Shown: positions 24,060 to 40,144 of the stretch, in pieces | How the letters are laid out: each line of letters begins with the position of its first letter | Position numbering within the stretch: position 1 is the stretch's first letter | DNA from: an uncultured Alphaproteobacteria bacterium | Lineage (GTDB): Bacteria > Pseudomonadota > Alphaproteobacteria > CBDVDY01 | Assembly: GCA_965372875.1 (NCBI GenBank) | Contig: CBDVDY010000001.1 | Span: 1 to 42,655 of the forward strand | Direction: 5' to 3' | DNA: 42,655 bases | Position numbers and translations under genes: made by a program | The notes under the pieces: model-generated | The model's database searches: none | Told to the model about the DNA's origin: nothing | What the model saw: the letters and a program-made list of their open reading frames with translations, nothing else

Positions 24060-24644
24060 TCAGAGCGCGGCCAAGGACAACGCCTTGGCGCCGGCCGGGC
24101 AGAAGTAGACGCAGCTGCCGCAGCCGGTGCAGTGACTGGCGTGGAATTCGGGCCCGGCGCCGCGGCGATAGGTGACCGCCGTGCCGCCGAGCGGGCAGCG
24201 GTCGAAACAATAATCGCAGTCCGGGTCTATTCCGGCGCGCGCGAAGCAGGCATCGGGCCCGAAGACCAGCCTGGCGATCCGCATTGTCGATGGCGTTACC
24301 GGCCCGAGCGCGCCGGTCGGGCAGGAAGCGGCGCACACCAGCCCGTCGCACATGACGCACGGCGAGTCCGCGGCCACGATTTGCGGCGTGTGGGTCGCCG
24401 CCGCCGTTCCCGCCGCGTCCATCTTGATCGCGTCCGCCGGGCAGGCCTCGGCGCAGTCGCCGCAACCGTCGCACAAGCTCTCGAAACGGTCGGGCGCGGC
24501 CGATCCGGGCGGACGAATAACCGGCGGACCGCCGTCCACCCCTGGCCCCGCCGCCCAGCGGCCGCGCAGAAGATCCCGGCGGGCCACGGTGCGGTCAAGC
24601 GTCGACACGGGATTCTCCGGGCCGCGATCCTGGCATGCCGGCAC
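24060..24644 (-). CDS. NapF-like cytoplasmic poly-ferredoxin (four Cys clusters)
   Basis: RRDLLRGRW...IRPPG N-terminus as in NapF. Clusters CDGCGDCAEACP, CVMCDGLVCAASCP, CDYCFDRCP, CTGCGSCVYFCP. The real start is probably GTG at 24608 or 24587. Confidence 0.7.
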   Translation of the reverse strand: MPACQDRGPENPVSTLDRTVARRDLLRGRWAAGPGVDGGPPVIRPPGSAAPDRFESLCDGCGDCAEACPADAIKMDAAGTAAATHTPQIVAADSPCVMCDGLVCAASCPTGALGPVTPSTMRIARLVFGPDACFARAGIDPDCDYCFDRCPLGGTAVTYRRGAGPEFHASHCTGCGSCVYFCPAGAKALSLAAL

Positions 24645-26133
24645 GCCGGCGCCGTCTCCGGCGCAGCATGGGAATGATGAAGGCGGCGACCGCCGCGAAG
24701 GCCACCGCGAGGCTGGCCAGCAGCCAGAGATTGCCGCCGCCGCGGAGCGTCAACACTGTCCTGGCGGTGACGCCGCCGGCGCCGCCGATACGGATTTCGA
24801 CGTTGTAGGCGGACGCCGGCAGCGAGGCCCGCATCCGATACACGCTCTCCTCGAGCGGTTCGTCGAAGGCGCGCAGCACGGGCGCGCCGCCATCCGTCGG
24901 GCGCAGAGCCACCTCGACCCGGCCCCTGTGCGCCTTGCCGGTCCGCGTGTCGGTGACGGAGACGTAGATCATCGCGTCGCTCGGTATCCCCGACTGGCTG
25001 CGGTTGATGCCGTCCAACGTGTAGGCGACCAGCGTGACCTCGTAGGGTGGCGCGCTGACCTGCACCTCGCGGGTCGGCACTTGCGGGTAGTTTTCGACGT
25101 AGCCGTAGTGGGGCAGGCCCTTGATGTGGTGGGCCAGCGCGTTCGACGGCGGCACCAGCACCGCCAGCAGCGCCAGCAGCGCGGCGAGCCCGGCCGTCGC
25201 GCGCGCGCCACCGGTCCGGGACCGGCGCCCCAGGCCGATTTCCAGGACCTGCGTCGGACAGAGATCGACGCAGGTATTGCACAGCATGCAGCGTTCGACG
25301 TCGATCTCGTCGCGCGGGATGACGGCGACCGGGCAGGCGGCGACACAGGCGTTGCAGCCGGAAAGGCACTCGCCCGATTCCGTGCGCCGTACGCCCCATA
25401 TCCGCCGCCGGCCAACCAGTTCCAGCAGCAGTCCCGTGGGGCACAGGCTTCGGCACCAGATCCGCGGCGCCGCCAGGAGCTCCGAGGCGGCGATGACGGC
25501 CATGAACAGGACGCCGAAACCGACCGCGCCGCCATACACCGCCAGATGCAAGTCGCGGGCCAGACCGGCATAGGGAAGGATGAAGGCAAAAGCGTTGAAC
25601 CCGGCCACGGCGGAAATCAGGAGGCCCGCCGTCAGTACGAGGTAGCGCAGTCCCGGCGGCGCGGCGGCGCCGGGCAGGCGCAACCGGCCACTCCGGCGCT
25701 CAAGCCACGCTCGCAGCGCGGCGTTCATTTCGAGCAACGTATTGACCGGGCAAACCCAGCCACAGAACAGACGCCCGGCCAATGCGGCGACCAGCAGCGG
25801 CACCGCGGCGCCGGCGACGAGCGGCCAATGCACCGAGGCGCTGGCGACCGCGTGCCCGAGCGCGGCCAACGGGTCGTTGATGGTAAATCCAAACAAGGTG
25901 ATCGACCAATATCCGCCGTGAAACAAATCGACCGCCGCGACCGGGCTGTCCAAGCCGCCGAACAGGCGCGCGAACGCGGTGTAAAGGAAACCCGCCCAGT
26001 CGCCGGCCAACGCGCCCACATGCCGCGCGCCCTTGCCGTACGCCTCGTACAGCGCGCTGCCACGCGAAAGCATCGGTAGCGCCAGCAATAGTGCGATGGA
26101 ACTCCACTGGATCGTGCGGCGCAAGGCGTTCAA
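24595..26133 (-). CDS. NapH-like membrane quinol dehydrogenase subunit with a C-terminal extension of about 210 aa
   Basis: FCGWVCPV and WCRSLCPTG membrane CxxxCP motifs. Two ferredoxin motifs: CLSGCNACVAACP and CMLCNTCVDLCP. These are followed by TM / about 140 aa / TM / RRRRRRR. TTG start lies 3 nt after the napG-like stop. Confidence 0.75.
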   Translation of the reverse strand: MNALRRTIQWSSIALLLALPMLSRGSALYEAYGKGARHVGALAGDWAGFLYTAFARLFGGLDSPVAAVDLFHGGYWSITLFGFTINDPLAALGHAVASASVHWPLVAGAAVPLLVAALAGRLFCGWVCPVNTLLEMNAALRAWLERRSGRLRLPGAAAPPGLRYLVLTAGLLISAVAGFNAFAFILPYAGLARDLHLAVYGGAVGFGVLFMAVIAASELLAAPRIWCRSLCPTGLLLELVGRRRIWGVRRTESGECLSGCNACVAACPVAVIPRDEIDVERCMLCNTCVDLCPTQVLEIGLGRRSRTGGARATAGLAALLALLAVLVPPSNALAHHIKGLPHYGYVENYPQVPTREVQVSAPPYEVTLVAYTLDGINRSQSGIPSDAMIYVSVTDTRTGKAHRGRVEVALRPTDGGAPVLRAFDEPLEESVYRMRASLPASAYNVEIRIGGAGGVTARTVLTLRGGGNLWLLASLAVAFAAVAAFIIPMLRRRRRRRAGMPGSRPGESRVDA

Positions 26134-26136
26134 GAT

Positions 26137-26709
26137 TCAAACCCGTCTTGGCGTGATACGGATCGCCTGCGGCAAGTGGATACAGGCGCGTTCGCAACTG
26201 CCGCAACCGACGCACTGTTCGGCGTCCACAACGGGGCGGGCGCCGGCCTTGAGTTTCAGCGCCTTGTCGGGAAACGGGCAGGCGTAATAGCACACGCCGC
26301 ATGTGCGGTTCGCATAGGAGTAGCACAAATCCTCGTTGACGATCGCGGTCCCCATGTGGACCGATTCCAAGATCGATTCGGCATTGTTGGCGATTGGGGT
26401 CAGCGCATCGGTGGGGCAGGCATCGGCGCAGCGCATGCACAGGATGCAGGCCTGCTCGCGCGGCCGGATCAAGGGTACGTAGGCCCGGGCGGGTCCCGCT
26501 TCCGGCGCCTCGAACTGGATGCACTGGTTCGGGCAGACGCTGCCGCACTGGAAACAGCGGATGCAGGCCGCCAGGAAGTCCTCTTCGGGCAAGGCGCCGG
26601 GCGGTCGAAGCGGCGCGGCCTCCGCCGGCCGCGCGCCGCGCAGGAACCAACCCGTGGCGACCGAGCCCACGGCGGTAAGCGCCAGAGCCAGCGCCCGCCG
26701 CCGATTCAT
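26137..26709 (-). CDS. NapG-like periplasmic (Tat-exported) poly-ferredoxin
   Basis: MNRRRALAL twin-arginine signal. LRPPGALPEEDFLAACIRCFQCGSVCP as in NapG. Four Cys clusters. ATG at 26707-26709(c); the maximal ORF reaches 26739. Confidence 0.8.
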   Translation of the reverse strand: MNRRRALALALTAVGSVATGWFLRGARPAEAAPLRPPGALPEEDFLAACIRCFQCGSVCPNQCIQFEAPEAGPARAYVPLIRPREQACILCMRCADACPTDALTPIANNAESILESVHMGTAIVNEDLCYSYANRTCGVCYYACPFPDKALKLKAGARPVVDAEQCVGCGSCERACIHLPQAIRITPRRV

Positions 26710-26752
26710 GCCGCCGCCGTCTCCGGTTGCGTCGCCCACGTTGGCCCCCGTC

Positions 26753-29482
26753 CTACGCGATTTTCTCGATCCGCGCCTTCAGGTGCTTGAAATCCGCTTG
26801 CCCGGAGACGGGATCGAACAGGCGGCTGGACACCTCGTTGACCAGCCAGCGGTTCTTTTTCGGGTCGGCGCTGTCCGCCACCGAAAGATTCCACGGGGAG
26901 AATATCTGTCCGGACATGACCAGATTGCGCGCCGGCCGCACCTTGGAGTTGGTGCCGATCGAGGTCCGCGCCTCGTAGAAGCAGTTCTTTCCGGTTTCGG
27001 GGTCGATGCGCGGCGTCACGATCCGCACCCATTCTCCGTCCTCGATGTCCCAGCGTTGGGCGTCTTCGGCGTTGACCTCCACGTACATCTCCGGGACCAG
27101 CCGCCTGGTCGTCGGCGAGCGAATGGTCTTGGCGGTGTGGAAGTGCTCGAACACGACGCCGAGGTTCAGCCACAACGGAAATTTGCCGCCTTTCGCCTGT
27201 TCCTTGAGCGGCATTTCGAACGCGTCGAAGTCGGGGAGTTCCGGCGGCAGCCCATTGTCGCGGATCTCCTTCAAAACATCCAGATGATCGGTGACCAACG
27301 CGTCCGGGCTGGTGCCGATCTTCTCGACCTTGGCCAGGATTTCCTTGGCCCGGGAATAATCCTGCTCGCACAGCTTGAACCGCGCGCGGCCGTCCGCGTG
27401 CGGGAAATAGCCGTAGGGCCGGTCTTCCCATCCGGTTTCCTGATTGCCGTATTTCCGTTTCAGCCCGCCGGCCTTGGCCACCGCGTAGTTGGGTGCCGGA
27501 TAGAACAGGCCCTTGGTCTCGCGCAGCGATTCATAGGGGCTTGTTTTTTCACGTTCCTCGAGTTCGGCGAGGCCCGAGATATCGGTCTTGGTGCCCTTCG
27601 AAGCCTTGAGGATGTTCCGGAACACGTCCTCCGGATCGTAGAATCCCTCGTGCACCCCCTCGGTCGCCTTCTTGTAGGGGAACACCTTGTCGGGATCGAG
27701 GCCCAGCCGCTTCGCCACCTCGCGGCCCTCGCCGATGATGATGTCGAGGTCCGGCCTGGTATTGGGCGGGCAGGGCACCGCCTTGTCGGTGACGTAGATA
27801 CGCCGTTCCGAGTTTTGGTAGGTACCGCCCTTTTCACCGAAGGTGGCCGCCGGCAGCACCAGATCGGCGTACAGCAGGTTGGGCGCGTGGCGGTAGCTTT
27901 CGGTCGCCACCACGAACATATTCCGTAACGCCGGCCGCAACAGCGACTTGACCTCGGGCATGTCGATGTGCGTGGCGTAGGAATATTTGAGCATCTTCAA
28001 ATCGCCCTTCAGGGCCCGTTCCATCATGCCCACGGCGAAGCCCACGTTCTTTTGCTTGGCGGTCTTCGCCAAACGGCTCGGCGAGACGCCCCAAGCCTTG
28101 GCGATGTAGTCGCGATGCGCCTTGTTGTTCATGCCTTCGTTAAACGGCAGACGGCCGGTAAGCCCACCCATCAGCCGTTCCGACATGGCGTTTGGCTGGC
28201 CGGTCATCGAGAACGGGCCGGCGCCGGGCCGGGCGATGTCGCCGGTCAGCAGGTGCAGATTGATCAGCGAGAGCACATTGTGCTGGCCGTGGATCGACTG
28301 GTTCCAGCCGCCGATGCCCCAGAACGAGAGCACGCCACCCTTGCCGCGGGCCCGGCCTTTCATCGACGCCTCGGCCCAGGTTTTGGCCAGCTGGCGCACC
28401 AGCGCCGGCGCCAGCCCGGTTCGATCGATCACCTGATCCGGGCTGTAGCGGGCCATAACGCCCTCACGATATTTTTCGAATCCCTTGGTGTGCGAGGTAA
28501 CGAACTTGCTGTCGATGGCGTCCGGGAAATCCTTGAGCAACACATGGGCAATGGCGTTGACCAGCGAGATGTCGCCGTTCGGCTTGATGGTGATATTGAG
28601 CGAATTGGTGGGATTGATCTGGTGCAAACCGTCCATCGTGCCGGTGTAACGCGGATCCACGACCATCGTGGGTATTCCGCGTTTTTCCTTTTCGGCGATC
28701 ACCCGCCAATACAGCACGGAGTGCGAACCGCGGGCGTTGTGGCCGAAGAAATTGATCATGTCGGCGGTTTCGATGTCCTCGTAGCAGCCCGGCGGGTGGT
28801 CGCTGCCGAGCGCGGCGAAATAGCCGGCGACCGCGGAGGTCATGCACATGCGGGCGTTGGCCTCGATGGAGTTCGACTGCAGCACCGCCTTGACGAACTG
28901 GTTCTCCAGCCATTGTTCTTCCATGGTCAGCTGGCCGGAGCCGTATGTGCCGATGGCATTGCCGCCGAACTTCTTGACGATACCGACGGTCATATCGACC
29001 AGGAGGTGCGACGCCTCTTCCCAGGTGACCTCGCGCCACACGTCGTCGTCAAAGCTGCCCTTCGTTTTCGACAGGTGTCCGGTCAGCGGGTTGGTCATGT
29101 CCTTGCGGACGAGTACCTTGTTCAGCCGGTCGACGTCGATGGCCTCGGCCGCGGTCAACCCCTTGATGCATTGCATGCCCAGGTTGACGGTGCTGTCCTT
29201 GTCGGGCACCGAGGCGACGATGCGTCCGTTCCGTACGACCAGGTAGCTGTGGCAGCCGACACCGCAATAGGGGCACTGGGTCGGCACCAAAGTCTGCTCG
29301 TCGCCGGACTCGGCGGCCGCCGCCGAGGCACCCTTGAAGTCGAACACCCAATTATCGCGCACCATGCCAAAGGTGCCGATGCCGGCGCCGATAGCGGCGG
29401 CGCCGCCGCGCATAAATCCTCGCCGGTTGACCTTCGCTTCGTCCAGTCCCAACCATTCACCCGACTTTGAATCTTTCGTCAT
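26753..29482 (-). CDS. Periplasmic molybdopterin (bis-MGD) oxidoreductase, NapA/NasA/Fdh clade, substrate unknown (909 aa)
   Basis: Tat motif NRRGFMRGG. [4Fe-4S] motif CPYCGVGC...GMQCIKG. NapA-like Mo-ligand context ANARMCMTSAVAGY, plus TGQPNAMSER and LPAATFGEKGGTYQNSERR. AAGGAG 6 nt before the ATG at 29480-29482(c). Confidence 0.85.
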   Translation of the reverse strand: MTKDSKSGEWLGLDEAKVNRRGFMRGGAAAIGAGIGTFGMVRDNWVFDFKGASAAAAESGDEQTLVPTQCPYCGVGCHSYLVVRNGRIVASVPDKDSTVNLGMQCIKGLTAAEAIDVDRLNKVLVRKDMTNPLTGHLSKTKGSFDDDVWREVTWEEASHLLVDMTVGIVKKFGGNAIGTYGSGQLTMEEQWLENQFVKAVLQSNSIEANARMCMTSAVAGYFAALGSDHPPGCYEDIETADMINFFGHNARGSHSVLYWRVIAEKEKRGIPTMVVDPRYTGTMDGLHQINPTNSLNITIKPNGDISLVNAIAHVLLKDFPDAIDSKFVTSHTKGFEKYREGVMARYSPDQVIDRTGLAPALVRQLAKTWAEASMKGRARGKGGVLSFWGIGGWNQSIHGQHNVLSLINLHLLTGDIARPGAGPFSMTGQPNAMSERLMGGLTGRLPFNEGMNNKAHRDYIAKAWGVSPSRLAKTAKQKNVGFAVGMMERALKGDLKMLKYSYATHIDMPEVKSLLRPALRNMFVVATESYRHAPNLLYADLVLPAATFGEKGGTYQNSERRIYVTDKAVPCPPNTRPDLDIIIGEGREVAKRLGLDPDKVFPYKKATEGVHEGFYDPEDVFRNILKASKGTKTDISGLAELEEREKTSPYESLRETKGLFYPAPNYAVAKAGGLKRKYGNQETGWEDRPYGYFPHADGRARFKLCEQDYSRAKEILAKVEKIGTSPDALVTDHLDVLKEIRDNGLPPELPDFDAFEMPLKEQAKGGKFPLWLNLGVVFEHFHTAKTIRSPTTRRLVPEMYVEVNAEDAQRWDIEDGEWVRIVTPRIDPETGKNCFYEARTSIGTNSKVRPARNLVMSGQIFSPWNLSVADSADPKKNRWLVNEVSSRLFDPVSGQADFKHLKARIEKIA

Positions 29483-29485
29483 GAT

Positions 29486-30214
29486 CTACTCCTTGGGAGC
29501 GAGGCTTCTGAGATAGGCGACGATGTCGTCGATCTCGTATTCGCGTAGTTCGACGAATCCTTGGCGGCCTTTGAGATACGCTCCCATCGGCGTGCCGACC
29601 CGGCCATACATAAGTGTCGCTTTGATGTATCCGTCGGTGGCTGATTTCAGGAACCCCGGGTCGGCCAACGCCGGCCCGCCGATGCCCGAGACAGCGCCGA
29701 TGACGTGGCCACCGCCGGCGTTCGGGCCGCCTTGCCCTTCCAGCCCGTGGCAGCCCGCGCACAACCCCTTGAACAGGGCGTGGCCTTCGCCGGCGTCGCC
29801 GTCAATGGTTCCATTCGCGATCTCGACGCTGGGCTGGTACTGCCAGCTCTTGATGTACAGGGCGACCGCGCGCATATCGTTCTCGCTCATTTCCTCGGCG
29901 AACGACGGCATGCCGCGCACCGGGCGGCCGTGTCGCATGCTGCGCATCAGATAGCCGAAATCGGCGATTACCAGGAACGACTGAAGATTGAGCGGCAGCC
30001 CCATTCCGCCGCGGCCGTGTTCACCGTGGCAGGCGGCGCAGTTCTCTTCAAACAACATTTGCCCGCGCGAGTAATATTGGTTCCAGCCGCTGTCGCGGGT
30101 GAACACTTGTGGGGCCGTGCCGGCGCCGCTTTGAGCGCTGGCGGCGGTTGCGGCAATTGTAAATACAGCCGCGGCGACGGCCAACGCCGCGCGGCGAACG
30201 CTGCTACGATTCAT
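29486..30214 (-). CDS. Diheme class I c-type cytochrome, Sec-exported (242 aa)
   Basis: Internal ATG at 30212-30214(c). Signal peptide MNRSSVRRAALAVAAAVFTIAATAASA. Two CxxCH motifs (CAACH, CAGCH), each with a downstream Met region (RGMPSF, GTPMGAY). TAG stop lies 3 nt before the molybdoenzyme ATG. Confidence 0.85.
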   Translation of the reverse strand: MNRSSVRRAALAVAAAVFTIAATAASAQSGAGTAPQVFTRDSGWNQYYSRGQMLFEENCAACHGEHGRGGMGLPLNLQSFLVIADFGYLMRSMRHGRPVRGMPSFAEEMSENDMRAVALYIKSWQYQPSVEIANGTIDGDAGEGHALFKGLCAGCHGLEGQGGPNAGGGHVIGAVSGIGGPALADPGFLKSATDGYIKATLMYGRVGTPMGAYLKGRQGFVELREYEIDDIVAYLRSLAPKE

Positions 30215-30415
30215 GATTGTTCCCCCAGTGGATCCATGGGTCGTGACGCAATACCTGTGACCCGTTGTCCACCCCTGATCGTCCCTGTCTCGATGATCTG
30301 GCAGGGTATAGTGGGGTACATGAGTCAAGCAGGCGCGAATGTCAAGAAAACCGGTCATGGAAAACCGGGAACCCCGACGGCGCGGCGGGCCGCCGCTTTG
30401 CCCCGTCCGGCGGCC

Positions 30416-34389: not shown

Positions 34390-36477
34390 TCAGCGTCCCT
34401 CGCGCCTCCAGGCGAGCAGGAGAGCGGCCAGCGCAAGCACCAGCACCAACACGCCGGGCAGGACCGGCACCTGGCGGATGCCGGTCACGATATAATCGCC
34501 GTTGGCGCGCAAACCGATCCAGCCCTGTTTGCCCAAACGGTTCCTGCCCGCGACCTCGCGTCCCGGGCGGACTCGGCGGATCTCGGGAAACGATTCCTCC
34601 GCCAGCCAAATCACGCCGCCGCCGCTCGCCGCGATCACTGGCGCGAGCCGCTCGTCGGTCGCGCGCATGTCGGCCACTTCGCGTGGGTTGAGCGTGCCCG
34701 CCGCGACCATCGTCGCCCGGCTATGATCGCGAACTCGGTAAAGGCCGGGCGAATCCACGGCGACGCTGCCGGTGGCCCGCCCGCGGCCGATCTCCTCCAA
34801 CTCCAGCGTCCGCACTTCTCCGGACGGCGCGGTGATTTCGACCGGGCCGTTGTCCGGCAGGAGACTTCGTCTCGTGACCTCCAAGCGGCCGCCGCGAACC
34901 TCGGCGCGCAGATCGTTCTCTTCGAGTTCAGGCTCCTTCATCAGCCAGTGCGCCAGCCGCCGCAACAGCTCCGCCTGCGGCCCGCCGCCTTCGAACCCGC
35001 GGCCCCAAAGCCAGATCTGATCGCTCATGAACTGCGCGACCCGGCCCTCGCCGACCCGGTCGAGAATGAGCAGCGGCCGGCCCTCGGCCCCGGTCATCAA
35101 CGTGTCGCCGCGATCGACGGTGGCGTCGATCAGGCGGAACCAGCGGCCCCACCGACGCTCCTTTCCCGTCACCCCCGGAAGCTCGGCGGTCACCGGGTGG
35201 CGCAAACCCTTGGCCGCGACCTCGGCCCGGAACCCGCCGACGCGCACGTCGCCGGTCGGCCGGCCGGGCAGGATAGGTTGCAGCGGCGTGCGGTAGAGTG
35301 AGAGCGGCGTGGCGAACGCGGGGCCCACCGCGACCAGAAGCGCGCCGCCGCGCTCCACATACTGGGCGACGTTGCCGATATAACGCGACAGGATGACGCC
35401 GCGCCGCCGGTAGCGGTCGAAAATGATGAGATCGAATTCCTCCAGCCGCGCCTCGAACAGCTCGCGGGTCGGGAAGCTGATCAGCGACAACTCGTCCACC
35501 GGCGTTCGGTCCTGTTTTTCCGGCGGCCGGAGAATGGTGAAATGGACCAGATCGACCGCCGGATCGGATTTCAGCAGGTTCCGCCAGCTGCGTTCGCCCG
35601 GGTGCGGCTCGCCCGATATGAGCAGGACCCGCAAACGATCGCGAACGCCGTTGACGGCGACGACGGCGGTATTGTTGGCGCTGGACAATTCGCCAGGTAC
35701 GGCTTCGACTTCGAGCTCGAAATAGGTCGTACCGGCGTGGTCGAGCTGGATTTCGACCTTGCGCTCTTGCCCGACCGGAACTCTCAACGCGCGCCACGTC
35801 TTGCCGTCGCGCCGGAGGTTGATGCGCGCCAACTCGCCATTGCCGCCGGGCAGATCGTCGACCCGCACGGTCATTTCGAGCGGCTTGCCGACGAGGCCGT
35901 AGTTGGGCGCCTGGACCACGACCAGCCGGCGATCGCCCCTGTTCGGGTCGCCGCTGATCAAGGCATGGAACGGACTGTAGCGGGCGCGATCAGCCTGCTC
36001 GTCGGGCACGTCGTGAACCTGCCCGTCGGTAATCATGACGATGCCGGCGAGGCGCCGCTCCGGCAGCTCGGAAAGCGCCCGCGCGAGATCGCCGAACAGT
36101 TGGGTGCCGTCGCTGCCGCCCGACCCTTTTCCCGCGCGCACGACCCGTAGCTCGAGATCGGGGAAGCGATCGACGGCCGCGCGGAGCCGGGCCAGCGCCG
36201 CTTCGCTTTGCCGCCGTCTCTGGCCGATGTCCTGGCTTGGCGACTCGTCGACGACAGCGATCGCTATGTCGGGGAGCGCTTCGCGCTGTTCCAGAACGAG
36301 CGAAGGGTTGGCCAACGTCAACAGCAAAACCGCCGCGGCCAGCAGCCTCCAGCCCAGCCCGGACGCGCGCACGTAAAACGTATAGCCGAGAACCAGGGCC
36401 GTCGCGGCCGCGAGGGCGGCCAGCGCCGTCCATGGCAAAAGAGGCGCGAAGGCGGCGCTGGCTTCCATGCCGCTCAT
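34390..36477 (-). CDS. Membrane protein with a VWA-like domain and a GATase1-like domain (fourth gene of the MoxR block)
   Basis: Two N-terminal TM helices. MIDAS-like VVDESPS ... ITDG. A final C-terminal TM. ATGA overlap with the upstream gene (36474-36477). Confidence 0.8.
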   Translation of the reverse strand: MSGMEASAAFAPLLPWTALAALAAATALVLGYTFYVRASGLGWRLLAAAVLLLTLANPSLVLEQREALPDIAIAVVDESPSQDIGQRRRQSEAALARLRAAVDRFPDLELRVVRAGKGSGGSDGTQLFGDLARALSELPERRLAGIVMITDGQVHDVPDEQADRARYSPFHALISGDPNRGDRRLVVVQAPNYGLVGKPLEMTVRVDDLPGGNGELARINLRRDGKTWRALRVPVGQERKVEIQLDHAGTTYFELEVEAVPGELSSANNTAVVAVNGVRDRLRVLLISGEPHPGERSWRNLLKSDPAVDLVHFTILRPPEKQDRTPVDELSLISFPTRELFEARLEEFDLIIFDRYRRRGVILSRYIGNVAQYVERGGALLVAVGPAFATPLSLYRTPLQPILPGRPTGDVRVGGFRAEVAAKGLRHPVTAELPGVTGKERRWGRWFRLIDATVDRGDTLMTGAEGRPLLILDRVGEGRVAQFMSDQIWLWGRGFEGGGPQAELLRRLAHWLMKEPELEENDLRAEVRGGRLEVTRRSLLPDNGPVEITAPSGEVRTLELEEIGRGRATGSVAVDSPGLYRVRDHSRATMVAAGTLNPREVADMRATDERLAPVIAASGGGVIWLAEESFPEIRRVRPGREVAGRNRLGKQGWIGLRANGDYIVTGIRQVPVLPGVLVLVLALAALLLAWRREGR

Positions 36478-39200
36478 TGCCCGAGCCGTTCCAGGATCGC
36501 CGGCACGTGCACCTGGTCGGACTTGTAATTGCCGGTCAGCGCGTACATCACCAGATTGATGCCGCTCCTGAAGGCGTATTCGCGCTGGTCCTCGCCGCCC
36601 GGGACGACCGCGAACAGCGGACGGTCGTCGTCGCCGGTGGCCCAGGCGCCGCCCCAGTCGTTCGTGCTGACCACGACCGAAGAGACACCGTCATTGACGT
36701 CTCGCCTGGCGCGTTCGACCCATACCGTGCCGCCCGCCCAGCGGCCCGGAAACTGGCGCAGCAGGTAAAATGTCTTGGTCAGCACGTGGCCATCGGGAAT
36801 CGGCGTCAGCTGCGGGATGTGCAGTCCGCGCGTAAGACGCCGGAGCTCGCGCGTGCCCGGCTGGCCCAGCCCGCCCGAGCGGTCGCGCACGTCGAGCACC
36901 AGGATACCGCCGCTGGAAATGAACCGGTTGAGCCGTTCCGCGGCGGCCGGAGACGGCGGTGTCTGGCCGGACGTGATTGGCCAATAGACGAGGGGAAAGA
37001 AGATCAGTTCGTCGAATTCCGGGTCGACCGCCATGGGCGCGCCCGGTTCGACCGAGGTGCGCGTCCGCAGCATCCAGCGCAGGCCCCTGAGCGCGGCCTC
37101 GGAAATCCTGTCGATTTCGGCATCGCCGGTGAGCAGATAGGCGAGATGGGTCTCGCCGGTAGCCGCGAGCGCGAACGCGTCGCCGTCGCGATCGCCCGGT
37201 TCCTCGGCGTCCGCGGGCGCGGCCGGAAGCAGGACCAGCGCCGCGACAATGGCTGACGTGGCCGCCACGGCGCCGGCCGATCCCGAGCGCAATCCTCGAA
37301 ATGCCAATGAAATCACCAGATCCGCAAGCATCAGCAGCAGCGCCGCGGCCATCAGCCAGGGCATCAGATCGAATTCGCGTTCAAGGCCGTAGAAGCCGCG
37401 CGCGACGCCCGAGGGCAAATCACCGAGCGGCCCGATATCGGTCAACCCGGCGGAGAGGTTGAGGCTGCGTCGGACGGCCTCGGTGCCATAAAATCCCGGC
37501 GGGTGGCGCGGGCGGGCGAAGGTCTTTTCGAAGGAAGCGGCCGGGATCGCGGCCGCCGTCGCGGGCGCCCGTTGCAGGCGCCCGAACCCGTCCAGGGTTT
37601 CCACCGGCGGCAGGCTGCCCTCGGCGTCGCCCGCGGCCACGCCTTGGCTCAGTCCAACGAGCCGCCGCAGCATGTCGACGAACAGGCCCGAGAGCGTGAG
37701 GTTGGACCAGCCGGTGTTGGCGGTGGTGTGCAGCAGGACCAGCCAGCCCCGACCACGCCGCTCGGCGGTCACCAGCGGCGTGCCATCGGTCAGCCGGGCC
37801 CAGGTCTTCTTTCCGAGATCGGCCGCCGGTTCCGCCAGCACTTGCCGCCGGATCACCACATCCTCGGGAATGGCGAGGCCGGCGAACGGGCTGGACGGCT
37901 CGAACCGCGCAAGCCGCATCGGCTGGGTCCACGACATGCTTCCGCCGAACGTGCGGTCGCCGCGGCGCAGGCGCACCGGAACCAGTTCGTCGTCGGCCTC
38001 GGCGAGGCGCGGTCCGGCAAACCGGACGACCACGCCGCCCGATTGCAACCAGTCGGTGATGCGCGACCGCGCGGATCCGGTGATCGGTCCGGGATCGGCC
38101 AGGATCAGCACCGAAAGCGGCCGCGCGAGAAGCTCGGCGGCGTTGCCGCGGCGCACTTCGCCGTAAGGACCCAGCGCGCGCTCCAGGTAGTAGGCCTCGC
38201 TCAGCAGCGGATGGCCGGTAAGCGCCGACCCTGTCACCAAGCCGATCGGGCGGCGGCGCCAGCGCTCGTCCAGCAGCACCAGCGACGCGGCCGTGCGCTG
38301 GCCCTCCACCTCCAGCCGCGCGACCCGGTTGCGCAGTTCCGACGGCAGTTCCAGCGCGGCGTCGGCGCTTGACGACCCCGGCGCGAAGCGAACCTCGCGG
38401 CGGGCCAGCACCCGACCGTTGTCGGCCATCGCCCGCACCCATACAAGCGCCGGGCCATCGGACCCGACGCGCAGAAGCCGCGCGCCGAGTTGTGTGCCTT
38501 CGATCACCGGCGGCAGCATCACCACCGGCCGGTCTTCCGGCGCGTCGACAATGACGCGCAGCGAGCCAAGACGTTGCAGCCGCTCGGCGAGATTCGCCGC
38601 CGCCTCATCGTCGATACCGTCGCTCAGCCAGACGGCATTGGCGGAGCCGGGTATTTCGAGCCGCTCCAGCGCGGCGGCGGCGGCGGCGCGGTCGGTCGGC
38701 CATGGCAGCGGGACAAGCGCCCGCGCCAAGGTCCGCGCGTCGGTGGCGCGCAAGAGCTTGCTGGCTTCCAACGGCGCCTCTTCGCTGCTCCGCGCGGTGG
38801 CCAGCAGAATAACCGGCCGTTGCGCCCGTTCGGCCTGTGCCAGAAGCTCGCCGATCTCCTGCTCGCGGGCGGGCCAATCGGCCGCCGCGGCCCAACCATT
38901 GTCGACCACCAGAACCAGCGGGCCGCTGCCCGTGAACTCGGCGCCCGGGTTCAGGATCGGCCGGGCCAGGCCGACTATGATCAGCGCCGCCAGCACCGTT
39001 CGCAGGATCAGCAGCCACAGCGGCGTGTGCGCCGGGGTCTCTTCCTTCTGTCGCAACCCGAACAGGAGTCGGACGGCGGGAAACCGGATCAGCCGGGGCG
39101 TCGGCGGCGTCACCCGCAACAGCCACCACAACACCGGCAGGACCGCGAGCGCGAGCAGAATCCACGGGCTGGCAAAGGCCAATGGTCCGAGGCTCAGCAT
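36474..39200 (-). CDS. BatA_N (aerotolerance-regulator N-terminal double-TM) / DUF4159 family membrane protein, 908 aa
   Basis: MLSLGPLAFASPWILLALAVLPVLWWLLRVTPP N-terminus. C-terminal DUF4159-like REYAFRSGINLVMYALTGNYKSDQVH. Confidence 0.8.
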   Translation of the reverse strand: MLSLGPLAFASPWILLALAVLPVLWWLLRVTPPTPRLIRFPAVRLLFGLRQKEETPAHTPLWLLILRTVLAALIIVGLARPILNPGAEFTGSGPLVLVVDNGWAAAADWPAREQEIGELLAQAERAQRPVILLATARSSEEAPLEASKLLRATDARTLARALVPLPWPTDRAAAAAALERLEIPGSANAVWLSDGIDDEAAANLAERLQRLGSLRVIVDAPEDRPVVMLPPVIEGTQLGARLLRVGSDGPALVWVRAMADNGRVLARREVRFAPGSSSADAALELPSELRNRVARLEVEGQRTAASLVLLDERWRRRPIGLVTGSALTGHPLLSEAYYLERALGPYGEVRRGNAAELLARPLSVLILADPGPITGSARSRITDWLQSGGVVVRFAGPRLAEADDELVPVRLRRGDRTFGGSMSWTQPMRLARFEPSSPFAGLAIPEDVVIRRQVLAEPAADLGKKTWARLTDGTPLVTAERRGRGWLVLLHTTANTGWSNLTLSGLFVDMLRRLVGLSQGVAAGDAEGSLPPVETLDGFGRLQRAPATAAAIPAASFEKTFARPRHPPGFYGTEAVRRSLNLSAGLTDIGPLGDLPSGVARGFYGLEREFDLMPWLMAAALLLMLADLVISLAFRGLRSGSAGAVAATSAIVAALVLLPAAPADAEEPGDRDGDAFALAATGETHLAYLLTGDAEIDRISEAALRGLRWMLRTRTSVEPGAPMAVDPEFDELIFFPLVYWPITSGQTPPSPAAAERLNRFISSGGILVLDVRDRSGGLGQPGTRELRRLTRGLHIPQLTPIPDGHVLTKTFYLLRQFPGRWAGGTVWVERARRDVNDGVSSVVVSTNDWGGAWATGDDDRPLFAVVPGGEDQREYAFRSGINLVMYALTGNYKSDQVHVPAILERLGQ

Positions 39201-39216
39201 GGCAACCCGTCGTCCG

Positions 39217-40122
39217 TCATCGCAGCAGCGCGCCCGACATGATCATGTACAGGGCGAGCAAGGCCGTCTCCGGCGGCTGGTGGCTGTGGTGCCGGGTGAA
39301 CGACCAGCCGACGTGCCGGCAGATCGATTCCAGCCCGTCGACATGGGCGCCGAGCCGCGCGCGATATTCCGCGCGGGCGCTTTCCACCCGGCGCACCAGC
39401 ACGTCGCCTTCTCCCTCCAATCCTTCGAACCGGGTCCGCCCGCGGAAGGGCAGGTCCTCCTCCGCCGGATCCAGAACTTGCAGCAGATGTCCATTGACGC
39501 CGCGTCCGGCGAAGCGGCGCACGAGGTCGTTGGTCTCCTCGATCGGCGCCAGGAAATCTCCGATCAGCACGAGGTGAGCGTGCCGCGGCAAGGGCTCGAA
39601 TCCGGGCAGATCCCCGCCGCCACCCTCGGCGGCCTTGAATCGTCGTTCGTCGAGCACGGAGTGGGCGAGGCGTTCGAGGGTTGCGCGGCCGCTCGACGGC
39701 ACCGATCCGTCGCCCAGGAGTGCGATGTGCTCGCCGGCGCGCACCAGGAGCGACGCCAGCGCCAGCAGCAGCAAATCCGCGCGCTCGCGTTTCTCCGGCA
39801 GATCGTCGGCGGAGGCGTAGCGCATCGACGCCGAAACATCGCACCACAACCAGATGCTCTGCGCGGCCTCCCACTCGGTTTCCCGCACGAACAGGTGGCG
39901 GGTCTTGGCCGACTGACGCCAGTCGATCATCTGCGCCGAATCGGTCGATTCGTAGCGGCGGAACTGCCAGAACGTCTCGCCCTGGCCGACGCGGCGCCTG
40001 CCGTGCACGCCTTGCGCGATGGTCGAGGCGACGCGCTCGGCGGCGACCAGGAGCGGCGGCAGCCCGGCGGCGATTTCCTCGGCGCGGTGCCGCGAGAGTT
40101 GCAGATTCGCGCTCGTCGCCAT
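39217..40122 (-). CDS. DUF58 domain protein (VWA-related partner of MoxR ATPases)
   Basis: GVHGRRRVGQGETFWQFRRYESTDSAQMIDWRQSAK and WLWCDVSASM motifs. Confidence 0.85.
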   Translation of the reverse strand: MATSANLQLSRHRAEEIAAGLPPLLVAAERVASTIAQGVHGRRRVGQGETFWQFRRYESTDSAQMIDWRQSAKTRHLFVRETEWEAAQSIWLWCDVSASMRYASADDLPEKRERADLLLLALASLLVRAGEHIALLGDGSVPSSGRATLERLAHSVLDERRFKAAEGGGGDLPGFEPLPRHAHLVLIGDFLAPIEETNDLVRRFAGRGVNGHLLQVLDPAEEDLPFRGRTRFEGLEGEGDVLVRRVESARAEYRARLGAHVDGLESICRHVGWSFTRHHSHQPPETALLALYMIMSGALLR

Positions 40123-40144
40123 GACCCGCGTCCTCGGCCGGCGG

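What the first reader, a model, noticed from the sequence alone, without database searches (positions are those of the whole stretch)
26753..29482. Catalytic subunit keeps the NapA-type Cys Mo ligand but is longer than typical NapA and has an extended Tat n-region
The protein has the N-terminal CxxCxxxC...C [4Fe-4S] motif. The segment SNSIEANARMCMTSAVAGY closely parallels the NapA Mo-ligand Cys segment. There is no in-frame TGA, so the ligand is Cys, not selenocysteine. At 909 aa it is well above the roughly 830 aa of classical NapA. The extra length seems to lie mostly in the C-terminal third, between LPAATFGEKGG and LWLNLGVVFEHFHT, though this is judged by eye only. Eighteen residues precede the twin-arginine motif.
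Basis: partly seen in the sequence, partly recalled or inferred. Interest (0 to 1): 0.6.

Follow-up and report, generated by a model that had tools for sequence, protein, structure and literature searches.

The report
Unstudied cousin of periplasmic nitrate reductase
The gene encodes an intact, exported molybdenum enzyme from a widespread but untested family that branches beside the known nitrate reductases; it probably reduces nitrate, and gene surveys may count it as ordinary napA.

Summary
These are the Tat motif after an 18-residue n-region, the CxxCxxxC...C cluster, the Cys213-Met214 Mo-ligand segment, no in-frame TGA, and 909 aa.

The protein is not a NapA in the strict sense:
- It scores about a third of the NapA HMM cut-offs.
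- It lies outside the NapA crown in trees.
- It has no NapD, NapB or NapC.

It belongs to a compact family that is at least 50% identical across about ten phyla and one archaeon. The family drops to about 30% identity with NarB/NasA and about 26% with NapA. The gene always sits in a module of cytochrome c, enzyme, NapG-like and NapH-like genes.

The extra length comes from family-wide, conserved, confidently folded insertions. The largest is the acidic 49-residue segment 709-757. No solved NapA shows a sequence match to that region, including the 924-aa Campylobacter enzyme.

The catalytic core (Cys-Met, Arg436, Lys107) is invariant. Several second-shell residues that are fixed in both Nap and Nas are replaced.

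The most likely function is periplasmic nitrate reduction fed by cytochrome c and NapGH. This is untested.

Length alone is not unusual, because known NapAs span 750-975 aa.

The parts
26753..29482 (-). Catalytic subunit (P0001, 909 aa): Tat-exported Mo-bisPGD/[4Fe-4S] enzyme of an uncharacterised family related to NapA and NarB/NasA
   Evidence: Pfam finds Molybdop_Fe4S4, Molybdopterin and Molydop_binding. It scores below all NCBIfam cut-offs. The best PDB sequence and fold match is D. desulfuricans NapA. In trees the family is monophyletic at 100/100.
29408..29428 (-). Twin-arginine motif N19-R-R-G-F-M-R25, preceded by an 18-residue n-region (29429-29482)
   Evidence: Translation. RR and F23 are at least 90% conserved in the family. 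The Shine-Dalgarno before the ATG supports the start. Residues 20-59 have pLDDT below 50, as expected for a leader.
29168..29275 (-). [4Fe-4S] ligands C70, C73, C77 and C105, with the conserved Lys107-Gly108 just after; Leu109 replaces the Tyr seen in NapB-dependent NapAs
   Evidence: These positions are invariant in all 83 aligned Nap, Nas and family sequences. Column 109 is Leu in 100% of the family and Tyr in 100% of canonical NapAs.
28820..28876 (-). Mo-ligand segment S203-Y221, with Cys213 (TGC, 28844-28846) and Met214
   Evidence: It aligns with DdNapA Cys140-Met141. C213 and M214 are invariant across the three clades. Codon identity.
28175..28177 (-). Arg436, equivalent to DdNapA Arg354 (proposed nitrate-binding residue). 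It is flanked by family-specific Glu435 and Leu437, whereas Nap and Nas have Gly/Ala-Arg-Glu
   Evidence: The role of Arg354 is taken from PMC13223375.
28337..28360 (-). Basic family-specific insertion 375-382 (KGRARGKG), just upstream of the strand that carries Ile390 (DdNapA Met308)
   Evidence: Absent from NapA, NarB/NasA and the sister lineage P0123. Net charge is +4 in P0001, which is also the family median.
27212..27358 (-). Largest family-specific insertion, residues 709-757 (49 aa, acidic, two helices)
   Evidence: Absent from NapA and NarB/NasA and mostly absent from P0123. Conserved in the family. pLDDT 93-97, with helices at 712-719 and 730-742. No PDB chain, including 9pxt, matches residues 653-756. 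Net charge is -5, family median -4.
27128..27160 (-). Pterin-binding patch G775-V-V-F-E-H-F-H-T-A-K785: Val776 replaces the Arg, and Phe781 the Trp, that are invariant in Nap and Nas
   Evidence: Column profiles. EcNapA Arg720 and Trp725 are described as conserved pterin contacts in PMC13223375.
29486..30214 (-). Class-I dihaem cytochrome c (242 aa; CAACH and CAGCH), 3 nt upstream of the enzyme gene; the presumed direct redox partner
   Evidence: Pfam Cytochrom_C and Cytochrome_CBB3. Haem motifs. A cytochrome c gene lies immediately upstream in 15 of 20 family loci.
26137..26739 (-). NapG-like poly-ferredoxin with its own RRR Tat motif (probable start at the internal Met11)
   Evidence: It scores 121.7 bits against the NapG HMM, below the 269 cut-off. 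N-terminal sequence. Conserved directly downstream of the enzyme gene in relatives.
24595..26133 (-). NapH-like membrane quinol-dehydrogenase subunit fused to an extra module of about 200 aa (512 aa in total)
   Evidence: It scores 122.5-126.5 bits against the NapH/MauN HMMs over residues 4-300. Pfam Fer4_5. The module of about 200 aa is a separate gene in other loci.
24060..24644 (-). NapF/NapG-like ferredoxin (194 aa), last gene of the operon
   Evidence: NCBIfam NapG 74.9-79.9 bits and NapF 68.1 bits, all below cut-off.

Best explanation
The ORF encodes the catalytic subunit of a distinct, uncharacterised lineage of Mo-bisPGD/[4Fe-4S] enzymes. That lineage groups with periplasmic (NapA) and assimilatory (NarB/NasA) nitrate reductases.

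**Inferred working model**
1. The apoprotein receives its [4Fe-4S] cluster (Cys70/73/77/105) and Mo-bis(pyranopterin guanine dinucleotide) in the cytoplasm, possibly helped by the NapF-like ferredoxin.
2. It is exported folded by the Tat pathway through the N-R-R-G-F-M-R leader.
3. In the periplasm, electrons from quinol reach it through the NapH-like and NapG-like pair and/or through the co-translated class-I dihaem cytochrome c.
4. The electrons pass from the Fe-S cluster via Lys107 to Mo, which is ligated by Cys213.
5. Mo reduces an oxyanion held by Arg436. The most likely reaction is nitrate to nitrite.

**Insertions.** The roughly 100 extra residues are conserved, folded, family-specific insertions. 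The acidic 709-757 and basic 375-382 segments stand out. They probably adapt the NapA fold to new partners (cytochrome c instead of NapB) and/or reshape the substrate funnel.

**Shown:** fold, cofactor ligands, export signal, family membership, gene context and the positions of the insertions.
**Inferred:** substrate, direction of electron flow, role of the insertions and signal cleavage.
For: **Fold and cofactor sites**
- The AF2 model has pLDDT 89.2 and pTM 0.88.
- Foldseek's best hits are DdNapA 2jio/2nap (target-normalised TM-score 0.90), then C. necator, E. coli and R. sphaeroides NapA (0.82-0.84), ahead of formate dehydrogenases.
- C70/C73/C77/C105, K107, C213-M214, the TGQP motif and R436 are invariant across 58 family, 19 NarB/NasA and 6 NapA sequences.

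**A discrete family**
- Members are at least 50% identical to P0001. The next-best matches are NarB/NasA at about 30% and canonical NapA at about 26%.
- In a library of 1.84 billion 50%-identity representatives, only about two full-length representatives stand for the family.
- The family is monophyletic at 100/100 on a stem of 1.37 substitutions per site. It lies inside the Nap+Nas group (95/93) and outside the NapA crown (100/99).

**Conserved gene context**
- The module cytochrome c, enzyme, NapG-like, NapH-like recurs in these organisms:
  - Rhodospirillales
  - Myxococcales
  - Kiritimatiellia
  - Planctomycetota
  - Gemmatimonadota
  - Calditrichota
  - Sericytochromatia
  - Gallionellaceae
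  - Photobacterium frigidiphilum
  - a Hydrothermarchaeales archaeon

**Support for nitrate as substrate**
- Within this tree, the only groups inside that Nap+Nas group whose function I know are nitrate reductases.
- G001 and G003 carry NirS and NirK, and G015 carries NrfA. None of the three has a NapA or NarG other than this family member.
- Chlorite dismutase is present in only 1 of 17 family genomes, which argues againstchlorate respiration.

**Insertions are structured and selected**
- They are conserved across phyla.
- Residues 709-757 have pLDDT 93-97.
- They are absent from the nearest sister lineage, P0123.
Against: - No member has been assayed, and I found no paper describing the family.
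- Nine of 17 genomes with the family also have a NapA-clade gene with NapD next to it. P. frigidiphilum has two canonical copies. The window's own genome has a NarG that is cut off by a contig end. The enzyme is therefore often redundant if it only reduces nitrate.
- Four genomes (G002, G004, G005, G016) show none of the Nap, Nar, Nir or Nrf genes searched for. These may be incomplete MAGs.
- Residues fixed in both Nap and Nas are replaced throughout the family:
  - Glu/Asp next to the catalytic Arg becomes Leu/Phe (position 437).
  - DdNapA Met308 becomes Ile390.
  - EcNapA Arg720 becomes Val776.
  - EcNapA Trp725 becomes Phe781.
- The long stem branch is compatible with a change of substrate or redox tuning.
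- The sister relation to NapA is only moderately supported (93/87). It collapses to a three-way split once P0123 is added.
Confidence: 0.6

Rival explanations
1. It is simply an ordinary long NapA, a lineage-specific length variant of the known periplasmic nitrate reductase family like the 925-975-aa NapAs of Campylobacterota.
For: NapA lengths range from 750 to 975 aa and insertions arose several times (PMC13223375 and PMC12769810). NapA is the best structural match. The Cys-Met ligand pair and the catalytic Arg are kept. Some sources already label members as NapA or nitrate reductase.
Against: - It scores 304 bits against a 904 cut-off (NF010055) and 283 against 930.55 (TIGR01706).
- It lies outside the 100/99-supported NapA crown. 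That crown includes the small, presumably monomeric-type NapAs that have NapD beside them.
- NapD is present next to every NapA-clade gene that has one in these genomes, never next to a family gene. It is absent from 8 of 17 family genomes.
- There is no NapB or NapC in the operon, and the Tyr used by NapB-dependent NapAs is Leu here.
- The region holding the 49-aa insertion finds no match in the 924-aa CjNapA.
Confidence: 0.08
2. It is a periplasmic reductase for a different high-potential oxyanion (selenate, iodate, chlorate/perchlorate, bromate or similar), not nitrate.
For: - Second-shell residues fixed in both Nap and Nas are systematically replaced, and the stem branch is long.
- The gene often coexists with canonical NapA and/or NarG.
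- Electron entry through class-I cytochromes c, and in five loci through Rieske/cytochrome b complexes, resembles cytochrome-c-fed selenate, chlorate and iodate reductases (the comparison is from my own knowledge).
- NapA itself turns over chlorate and perchlorate (PMC12769810).
Against: - Chlorite dismutase is in only 1 of 17 genomes.
- First-shell residues are identical to those of nitrate reductases.
- Known selenate, chlorate, perchlorate and iodate reductases belong to other branches of the DMSO reductase family (my own knowledge).
- Nitrate is by far the most available of these acceptors in the marine, sediment and groundwater settings I take these organisms to come from (my own knowledge; habitats were not checked).
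Confidence: 0.2
3. It runs in the oxidative direction. As a periplasmic dehydrogenase (for example of nitrite or another reduced anion) it would pass electrons to the high-potential cytochrome c and on to a cbb3 oxidase. The NapGH-like proteins would serve quinone reduction or reverse electron flow.
For: - The partner is a class-I cytochrome c related to CcoP and c4-type cytochromes. I expect His/Met haem ligation; the Met ligands were proposed by another first-reader note, not checked here.
- Named members include Gallionellaceae, Mariprofundus, Magnetococcales and Thiohalobacter, which I know as microaerophilic iron and sulfur oxidisers.
- The review's reference list includes a 2025 paper reporting reversible nitrate/nitrite interconversion by CjNapA.
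Against: - NapG/NapH pairs are known only as quinol dehydrogenases that feed reductases (my own knowledge).
- The family also occurs in lineages I regard as heterotrophs, such as Photobacterium, Myxococcota and Kiritimatiellia.
- No characterised member of the Nap/Nas group is physiologically an oxidase.
- No carbon-fixation or nitrifier context was seen.
Confidence: 0.07
4. It is a periplasmic formate dehydrogenase. The best-scoring NCBIfam model is Fdh-alpha.
For: TIGR01591 Fdh-alpha gives the top NCBIfam score, 327 bits. Formate dehydrogenases are the next structural neighbours.
Against: - The score is half the 666 cut-off.
- The ligand is followed by Met, not the His of the (Se)Cys-His pair that I recall from formate dehydrogenases.
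- The tree places the family inside the Nap/Nas group, separated from the FdsA-like and FdnG-like clades by starred branches.
Confidence: 0.02

Closest known systems
Monomeric periplasmic nitrate reductase NapA of Desulfovibrio desulfuricans ATCC 27774 (PDB 2NAP/2JIO; napCMADGH operon)
   Same: - It is the best sequence match (E 4e-70) and the best fold match (target-normalised TM-score 0.90).
- It shares the Tat export signal, the N-terminal [4Fe-4S] cluster, Cys140-Met141 (here C213-M214), Arg354 (R436) and Asp155 (D228).
- It works without NapB and has NapG/NapH and a c-type cytochrome encoded alongside (PMC13223375; PMC5317091).
   Different: - Identity is only 27%.
- P0001 is 186 aa longer than the 723-residue crystallised chain.
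- Family-specific insertions are 132-141, 287-293, 375-382, 473-477, 639-648, 709-757 and 843-849.
- Glu156 becomes His/Thr, Asp355 becomes Leu and Met308 becomes Ile.
- There is no NapD or NapC. The cytochrome partner is a class-I dihaem protein rather than the tetrahaem NapM.
Heterodimeric NapAB (E. coli 2NYA, C. necator 3ML1, R. sphaeroides 1OGY; TIGR01706/NF010055)
   Same: Same four-domain fold (target-normalised TM-score 0.82-0.84), same cofactor ligands and catalytic Arg, periplasmic location, and in E. coli a NapGH quinol dehydrogenase.
   Different: - About 26% identity, and HMM scores about a third of the cut-offs.
- It lacks the canonical NapA insertions after residues 333 and 597.
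- The Tyr after the Lys-Gly pair, which I take to be the Tyr58 described for NapB-dependent NapAs, is Leu.
- Arg720 becomes Val and Trp725 becomes Phe in the pterin patch.
- There is no napB, napC or napD.
Campylobacter jejuni NapA (924 aa, PDB 9PXT; napAGHBFLD)
   Same: Similar overall length, a NapA fold with several insertions, and a NapGH-dependent electron supply.
   Different: - The insertions differ. Residues 653-756 of P0001 find no match in 9pxt.
- CjNapA has positively charged inserts on the substrate channel, whereas the largest insert here is acidic.
- CjNapA lies within the NapA radiation. Its operon includes napB and napD.
Assimilatory nitrate reductases NarB/NasA/NasC
   Same: This is the closest non-family group by BLAST, at about 30% identity. 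It shares the CPYCGVGC-type cluster motif, the TGQPNAM motif and Glu188.
   Different: - The NarB/NasA sequences compared have a median of only 14 residues before the first cluster Cys, which leaves no room for a Tat leader; they are cytoplasmic (location from my own knowledge).
- They are about 735 aa and lack all the insertions.
- They use different redox partners.
- They form a separate clade at 99/97 support.
Nap cluster of Caldithrix abyssi (Cabys_2564-2557; PMC5317091)
   Same: It comes from a cultured nitrate respirer. Its Nap cluster lacks napB and napC. It combines a c-type cytochrome, NapA, NapG, NapH and a Rieske/cytochrome b complex. Five family loci have the same wiring.
   Different: I could not show that its NapA belongs to this family. 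The 780-aa NapA of related Calditrichaceae genomes, which is also next to Rieske/cytochrome b genes, falls inside the NapA crown. The resemblance is therefore in wiring, not in the catalytic subunit.

Membership tests
NapA (periplasmic nitrate reductase catalytic subunit; TIGR01706 / NF010055) | Score at or above the curated HMM cut-off | tested here: not met
   283.2 bits against a cut-off of 930.55, and 304.1 against 904. A whole-genome scan gives the same result.
NapA | Twin-arginine signal peptide (periplasmic location) | tested here: met
   N19-R-R-G-F-M-R followed by a Gly/Ala-rich h-region; conserved in the family. Export itself is not testable here.
NapA | N-terminal [4Fe-4S] motif and conserved Lys on the electron path | tested here: met
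   C70, C73, C77, C105 and K107 are invariant.
NapA | Cys Mo ligand followed by Met, plus the catalytic Arg | tested here: met
   C213-M214 and R436 align with DdNapA C140-M141 and R354.
NapA | Placement inside the NapA clade in a phylogeny | tested here: not met
   The family is a separate 100/100 clade outside the 100/99 NapA crown. With P0123 added, the three groups form an unresolved split.
NapA | NapD chaperone gene accompanying napA | tested here: not met
   All nine PF03927 (NapD) hits lie beside NapA-clade genes, one in each of eight genomes and two in G012. None lies beside a family gene, and there is none in G000-G005 or G014-G016.
NapA | NapB (bis-His dihaem) or NapC partner | tested here: not met
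   The operon encodes a class-I dihaem cytochrome c of the CcoP/c4 type instead. Tyr is replaced by Leu109.
NapA | Conserved pterin-contact residues (EcNapA Glu218, Arg720, Trp725) | tested here: not met
   Position 252 is Gly in P0001, with Gly 67% / Glu 31% across the family. Position 776 is Val/Ile against Arg 100% in Nap and Nas. Position 781 is Phe against Trp 100%. The residues are named in PMC13223375.
NapA | Nitrate reductase activity | not testable with these tools
Assimilatory nitrate reductase NarB/NasA/NasC | Cytoplasmic enzyme without a signal peptide, scoring above the HMM cut-off | tested here: not met
   A Tat leader is present. NasC scores 244 against a cut-off of 1100 and NasA 243 against 1000. 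NarB/NasA form a separate clade.
Formate dehydrogenase alpha (TIGR01591) | (Se)Cys-His active-site pair and a score above cut-off | tested here: not met
   The pair is Cys-Met. The score is 327 against a cut-off of 666. The family is separated from the Fds- and Fdn-like clades in trees.
Uncharacterised family of cytochrome-c-linked, NapA-like enzymes (this report) | At least 50% identity to members; insertions 375-382 and 709-757; an E-R-L/F motif at the catalytic Arg; G-V/I-V-Y/F-E-H-F-H; gene order cytochrome c, enzyme, NapG-like, NapH-like | tested here: met

The most novel reading that the evidence does not exclude
The family would be a functionally distinct third lineage beside Nap and Nas. 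I see two possibilities.

1. It is a nitrate reductase fed through cytochrome c and Rieske/cytochrome b complexes, so that periplasmic nitrate reduction becomes coupled to a proton-motive quinol-oxidising complex. Classical Nap systems are not coupled in this way.
2. It is an enzyme with another physiological substrate or direction, for example a different oxyanion, or nitrite oxidation.

In either case the conserved acidic 709-757 and basic 375-382 insertions would form the new partner-docking and substrate-funnel surfaces.
Probability: 0.2. Interest if true: 0.75.

Novelty: new variant of a known kind. Interest (0 to 1): 0.5.

Why it matters
Nitrate-reductase genes are used as markers in nitrogen-cycle surveys. 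This family is spread over about ten bacterial phyla and at least one archaeon. Named members include Gallionellaceae, Mariprofundus, Magnetococcales and Thiohalobacter, which I know as iron- and sulfur-oxidising microaerophiles. Automatic pipelines label its members variously as 'molybdopterin oxidoreductase', 'NapA', 'ferredoxin-nitrate reductase' or 'selenocysteine-containing dehydrogenase'.

If the enzyme reduces nitrate, surveys that apply strict NapA models miss it. If it does not, loose annotation overcounts napA.

For enzymologists the family is a natural experiment. The first coordination shell is the same as in NapA, but residues otherwise invariant in nitrate reductases are replaced, NapD and NapB are absent, and the cytochrome partner is different. 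Two cultured carriers, Photobacterium frigidiphilum JCM 12947 and Thiohalobacter sp. IOR34, make it directly testable.

Tried and rejected
- **Plus-strand reading.** At the given coordinates the plus strand gives no ORF. The gene is on the minus strand.
- **Formate dehydrogenase reading.** Rejected because the ligand pair is Cys-Met and the tree places the family elsewhere.
- **(Per)chlorate reductase reading.** Weakened, because chlorite dismutase is in only 1 of 17 family genomes.
- **FNR/Dnr-type box (TTGAT-N4-ATCAA).** No match in the window at up to 1 mismatch.
- **Promoter and terminator scan of the operon.** Nothing above chance.
- **Link to Caldithrix abyssi, a cultured nitrate respirer.**
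  - Its published Nap cluster has similar wiring.
  - I could not identify its genome among 21 genomes of the family that holds G012.
  - The 780-aa NapA of related genomes is a true NapA.
  - A second homologue search returned no C. abyssi protein.
- **Literature.** Five of six full-text searches were aimed at the family, and none found a description of it.
- **Same-order relatives.** The collection holds only the window's own genome in that order.
- **3-D mapping of insertions.** I could not place the insertions relative to the substrate funnel or the Fe-S face, because model coordinates cannot be read by the scripts.
- **Genome co-occurrence of Nap, Nar, Nir and Nrf.** The pattern is mixed, and 17 mostly MAG genomes are too few to be decisive.

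Full report
**1. The observation**

The ORF lies on the minus strand at 26753-29482 and encodes 909 aa ending in TAG. The plus strand has no ORF there. GC3 is 0.84, as in the other credible genes of this 66% GC window. The ATG at 29482 follows an AAGGAG Shine-Dalgarno by 6 nt. It lies 3 nt after the stop of an upstream cytochrome c gene.

All listed features are present:
- C70-x2-C73-x3-C77...C105.
- The segment S203-Y221, whose C213-M214 aligns with Cys140-Met141 of D. desulfuricans NapA.
- No in-frame TGA, and a TGC codon for Cys213.
- N19-R-R-G-F-M-R after 18 residues.

Pfam finds Molybdop_Fe4S4, Molybdopterin and Molydop_binding.

**2. It is not a NapA in the strict sense**

NCBIfam scores are far below every curated cut-off:

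| Model | Score (bits) | Cut-off |
|---|---|---|
| Fdh-alpha | 327 | 666 |
| NapA | 304 and 283 | 904 and 930.55 |
| NasC | 244 | 1100 |

A database search returns hundreds of proteins of 860-940 aa at 55-85% identity. They come from Rhodospirillales, Myxococcota, Hydrogenedentota, Kiritimatiellia, Mariprofundales, Magnetococcales, a Hydrothermarchaeales archaeon and others, and carry only generic or inconsistent names.

A scan of species-representative genomes adds Sericytochromatia, Phycisphaeraceae, Planctomycetaceae, Gemmatimonadales, Calditrichaceae, Gallionellaceae, Hyphomicrobiaceae, Motiliproteus and the isolate Photobacterium frigidiphilum JCM 12947. Thiohalobacter sp. IOR34 is another cultured carrier.

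Identity to P0001 drops sharply from at least 50% within the family to about 30% (NarB/NasA) and about 26% (canonical NapA). In a library of 50%-identity representatives, essentially two full-length sequences stand for the family. One more distant relative, P0123, is 835 aa and 35-40% identical.

**3. Phylogeny**

| Tree | Result for the family |
|---|---|
| Quick LG+G4, 74 sequences | One clade (100) on a stem of 1.0 substitutions per site. Unresolved against the NapA and NarB/NasA clades inside a Nap/Nas group (98). Fds- and Fdn-type formate dehydrogenases lie outside. |
| Careful LG+C20 PMSF, 45 sequences | 100/100, stem 1.37. Sister to the whole NapA clade at 93/87. The NapA crown itself is 100/99 and includes the small NapD-associated forms. 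Nap plus family is sister to NarB/NasA at 95/93. |
| With P0123 and other representatives added | The stem splits into 0.77 + 0.51, and the three groups become an unresolved three-way split. |

So the family sits beside Nap and Nas, and inside neither. Within the family the branching does not follow taxonomy. For example, Hyphomicrobiaceae, Rhodospirillaceae, Photobacterium and Motiliproteus members are intermingled. Only 4 of 401 genomes of the window's class carry a member. Both points suggest horizontal spread.

**4. Gene context**

In the window the operon, all on the minus strand, reads as follows:

| Coordinates | Product |
|---|---|
| 29486-30214 | Class-I dihaem cytochrome c |
| 26753-29482 | The enzyme |
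| 26137-26739 | NapG-like ferredoxin with its own RRR leader |
| 24595-26133 | NapH-like protein fused to an extra module of about 200 aa |
| 24060-24644 | NapF/G-like ferredoxin |

The order cytochrome c, enzyme, NapG-like, NapH-like recurs in every well-resolved family locus examined. It is often followed by a ferredoxin, a protein of about 200 aa, a second NapH-like protein of about 510 aa and a second NapG-like protein. In five loci a GltD-like flavoprotein, a Rieske protein, cytochrome b and a long multihaem cytochrome c come first.

NapD (PF03927) gives nine hits in the 17 genomes, and each hit lies beside a NapA-clade gene. It is never beside a family gene, and it is absent from 8 of the 17 genomes that carry the family, including the window's own.

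**5. Where the extra residues are**

I used an 83-sequence alignment of 58 family, 19 NarB/NasA and 6 canonical NapA sequences. Segments present in the family but absent from both other groups are 132-141, 287-293, 375-382, 473-477, 639-648, 709-757, 828-835 and 843-849, about 104 aa in all. In the 18-sequence alignment, 828-835 is confined to P0001's own subclade, although the divergent member P0121 has it too.

Canonical NapAs in turn have insertions after residues 333 and 597 that the family lacks.

Counts between anchor positions, relative to canonical NapA, are +22 in the leader, +36 in 550-782 and +25 in the C-terminal domain.

The 49-residue insertion 709-757 has these properties:
- It is conserved across phyla.
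- It is predicted with pLDDT 93-97 as two helices.
- It is acidic, with net charge -5 and a family median of -4.
- No sequence match to residues 653-756 is found in any PDB chain, including the 924-aa C. jejuni NapA.
- It is largely missing from the sister lineage P0123, which also lacks 132-141 and the basic 375-382 insertion.

These are therefore defining, selected features of the family rather than loose loops.

**6. Active site**

Invariant across all three clades are the four cluster cysteines, K107, S182-G-Q184, N209, R211, C213-M214, S216, N394-Q395, the TGQP motif, R436 and H782.

Family-specific replacements at positions that are fixed in both Nap and Nas:

| Position | Family | Nap and Nas |
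|---|---|---|
| 435 | Glu | Ala (Nap), Gly (Nas) |
| 437 | Leu/Phe | Glu/Asp (DdNapA Asp355) |
| 390 | Ile | Met (DdNapA Met308) |
| 776 | Val/Ile | Arg (EcNapA Arg720) |
| 781 | Phe | Trp (EcNapA Trp725) |

Further family-invariant residues are His248, Arg251, His398, Gln400, Phe447-Asn448 and Lys785. At these positions Nap and Nas have other residues, not always a single fixed one.

Leu109 replaces the Tyr that all six canonical NapAs have after the Lys-Gly pair. I take this to be the Tyr58 that PMC13223375 describes near NapB haem II. The mapping is my inference from the C-x-K-G-Y motif.

The pocket is thus NapA-like in its first shell and different in its second shell.

**7. Structure**

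AlphaFold2 with the 83-sequence alignment gives pLDDT 89.2 and pTM 0.88. Only residues 20-59, the leader and linker, fall below 50.

Foldseek ranks D. desulfuricans NapA first (target-normalised TM-score 0.90, 27% identity). C. necator, E. coli and R. sphaeroides NapA follow at 0.82-0.84, and then formate dehydrogenases.

I could not read the model coordinates. The position of the insertions relative to the funnel or the Fe-S face therefore remains open.

**8. The leader**

The n-region before RR ranges from 8 to 38 residues in the family. It contains an aromatic-x-Gly element: EWLGL in P0001, and YGSKELEVR...P.TG in Myxococcota-type members.

Many members have a lipobox-like Cys after the h-region, but P0001 does not. 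P0001 has candidate AxA cleavage sites at Ala52-Ala57, which is unusually far (more than 10 residues) beyond the h-region. Processing is therefore uncertain.

From memory (not tested), an n-region of 18-19 residues is within the range of known Tat substrates such as DmsA, HyaA and HybO.

**9. Function**

Within my tree, the only groups in the enclosing Nap+Nas group whose function I know are nitrate reductases. The first-shell residues are also retained. Nitrate reduction is therefore the most economical reading.

Genome content is only mildly informative:
- Nine of 17 family genomes also have a NapA-clade gene (G006-G014). Eight of these have NapD beside it.
- Three have a NarG. In the window's own genome it is cut off by a contig end.
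- G001 and G003 have NirS and NirK, and G015 has NrfA. None of these three has any other Nap or Nar.
- Four show none of the genes searched for.

Chlorite dismutase is in 1 of 17 genomes, which argues againstchlorate respiration.

The literature I could search does not describe the family. A Zetaproteobacteria study reports 'napAB' in some MAGs without distinguishing types. The Caldithrix abyssi paper describes a similarly wired Nap cluster, but I could not tie its NapA to this family.

Earlier notes of this scan on other genomes reached the same reading of an 'uncharacterised relative of Nap'. I treat them as leads, not as evidence.

**10. Verdict**

The protein is NapA-like and carries real, conserved extra segments. 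Its length alone is unremarkable, and it belongs to a separate, unstudied lineage rather than being a long NapA.
- I put the probability that it is a periplasmic nitrate reductase of this new lineage at about 0.6.
- Novelty: a new variant of a known kind.
- Interest: moderate.

Noticed in passing
L001, L013, L014, L017, L018, L019, L026 (next to the cytochrome c gene): A large DUF255/Thioredox_DsbH protein (about 500-810 aa) lies next to, and mostly divergent from, the cytochrome c gene in 7 of 20 family loci, including the archaeal locus and the Photobacterium locus. It is not present in the window.
   Followed up: partly
L012, L015, L020, L025, L027 (upstream of the enzyme gene): In five loci from Planctomycetota, Gemmatimonadota, Calditrichota and an unnamed metagenome contig, a GltD-like Fer4_20/Pyr_redox_2 flavoprotein and a 680-1450-aa multihaem cytochrome c precede the enzyme gene. 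In L012 a Rieske protein and cytochrome b lie between them. This suggests electron entry through a bc-type complex.
   Followed up: partly
window 24595-26133 (-) and 24060-24644 (-): The NapH-like protein is 512 aa because a module of about 200 aa, which is a separate gene in most relatives, is fused to it. The second NapH-like/NapG-like pair seen in many relatives is missing here. A 194-aa NapF/G-like ferredoxin ends the operon.
   Followed up: partly
G000:C251:2896-4587 (own genome, another contig): The window's genome carries a NarG that is cut off by the contig end (725 bits over model positions 23-579). The organism therefore probably also has a membrane-bound nitrate reductase.
   Followed up: no
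P0123 and P0124 (representatives): P0123 (835 aa, lipobox) is a sister lineage. It shares the G-I-V-Y-E-H-F-H patch but lacks insertions 132-141, 375-382 and most of 709-757. P0124 (680 aa) resembles the family but lacks the Cys-Met ligand motif, so it may be a degenerate or truncated relative.
   Followed up: partly
window 34390-41161 (-): An operon of MoxR AAA+ ATPase, DUF58, a 908-aa BatA_N/DUF4159 protein and a 695-aa protein lies upstream. It is unrelated to the finding; the matching length (908 vs 909 aa) is coincidental.
   Followed up: no
window 30215-30415: The intergenic region between the epimerase gene and the cytochrome c gene holds a GC-rich hairpin followed by a T-run, and then TTGACA/TTGACT-like hexamers. 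The operon therefore probably has its own promoter. No FNR-type box was found.
   Followed up: partly
L129 and L130 (Calditrichaceae genomes G422, G424): A 780-aa Tat-lipobox NapA that falls inside the NapA crown sits beside a 14-haem cytochrome, a Rieske protein, cytochrome b, an octahaem cytochrome and a tetrahaem cytochrome, with no NapG or NapH nearby. Rieske/cytochrome b wiring is therefore not exclusive to the new family.
   Followed up: partly
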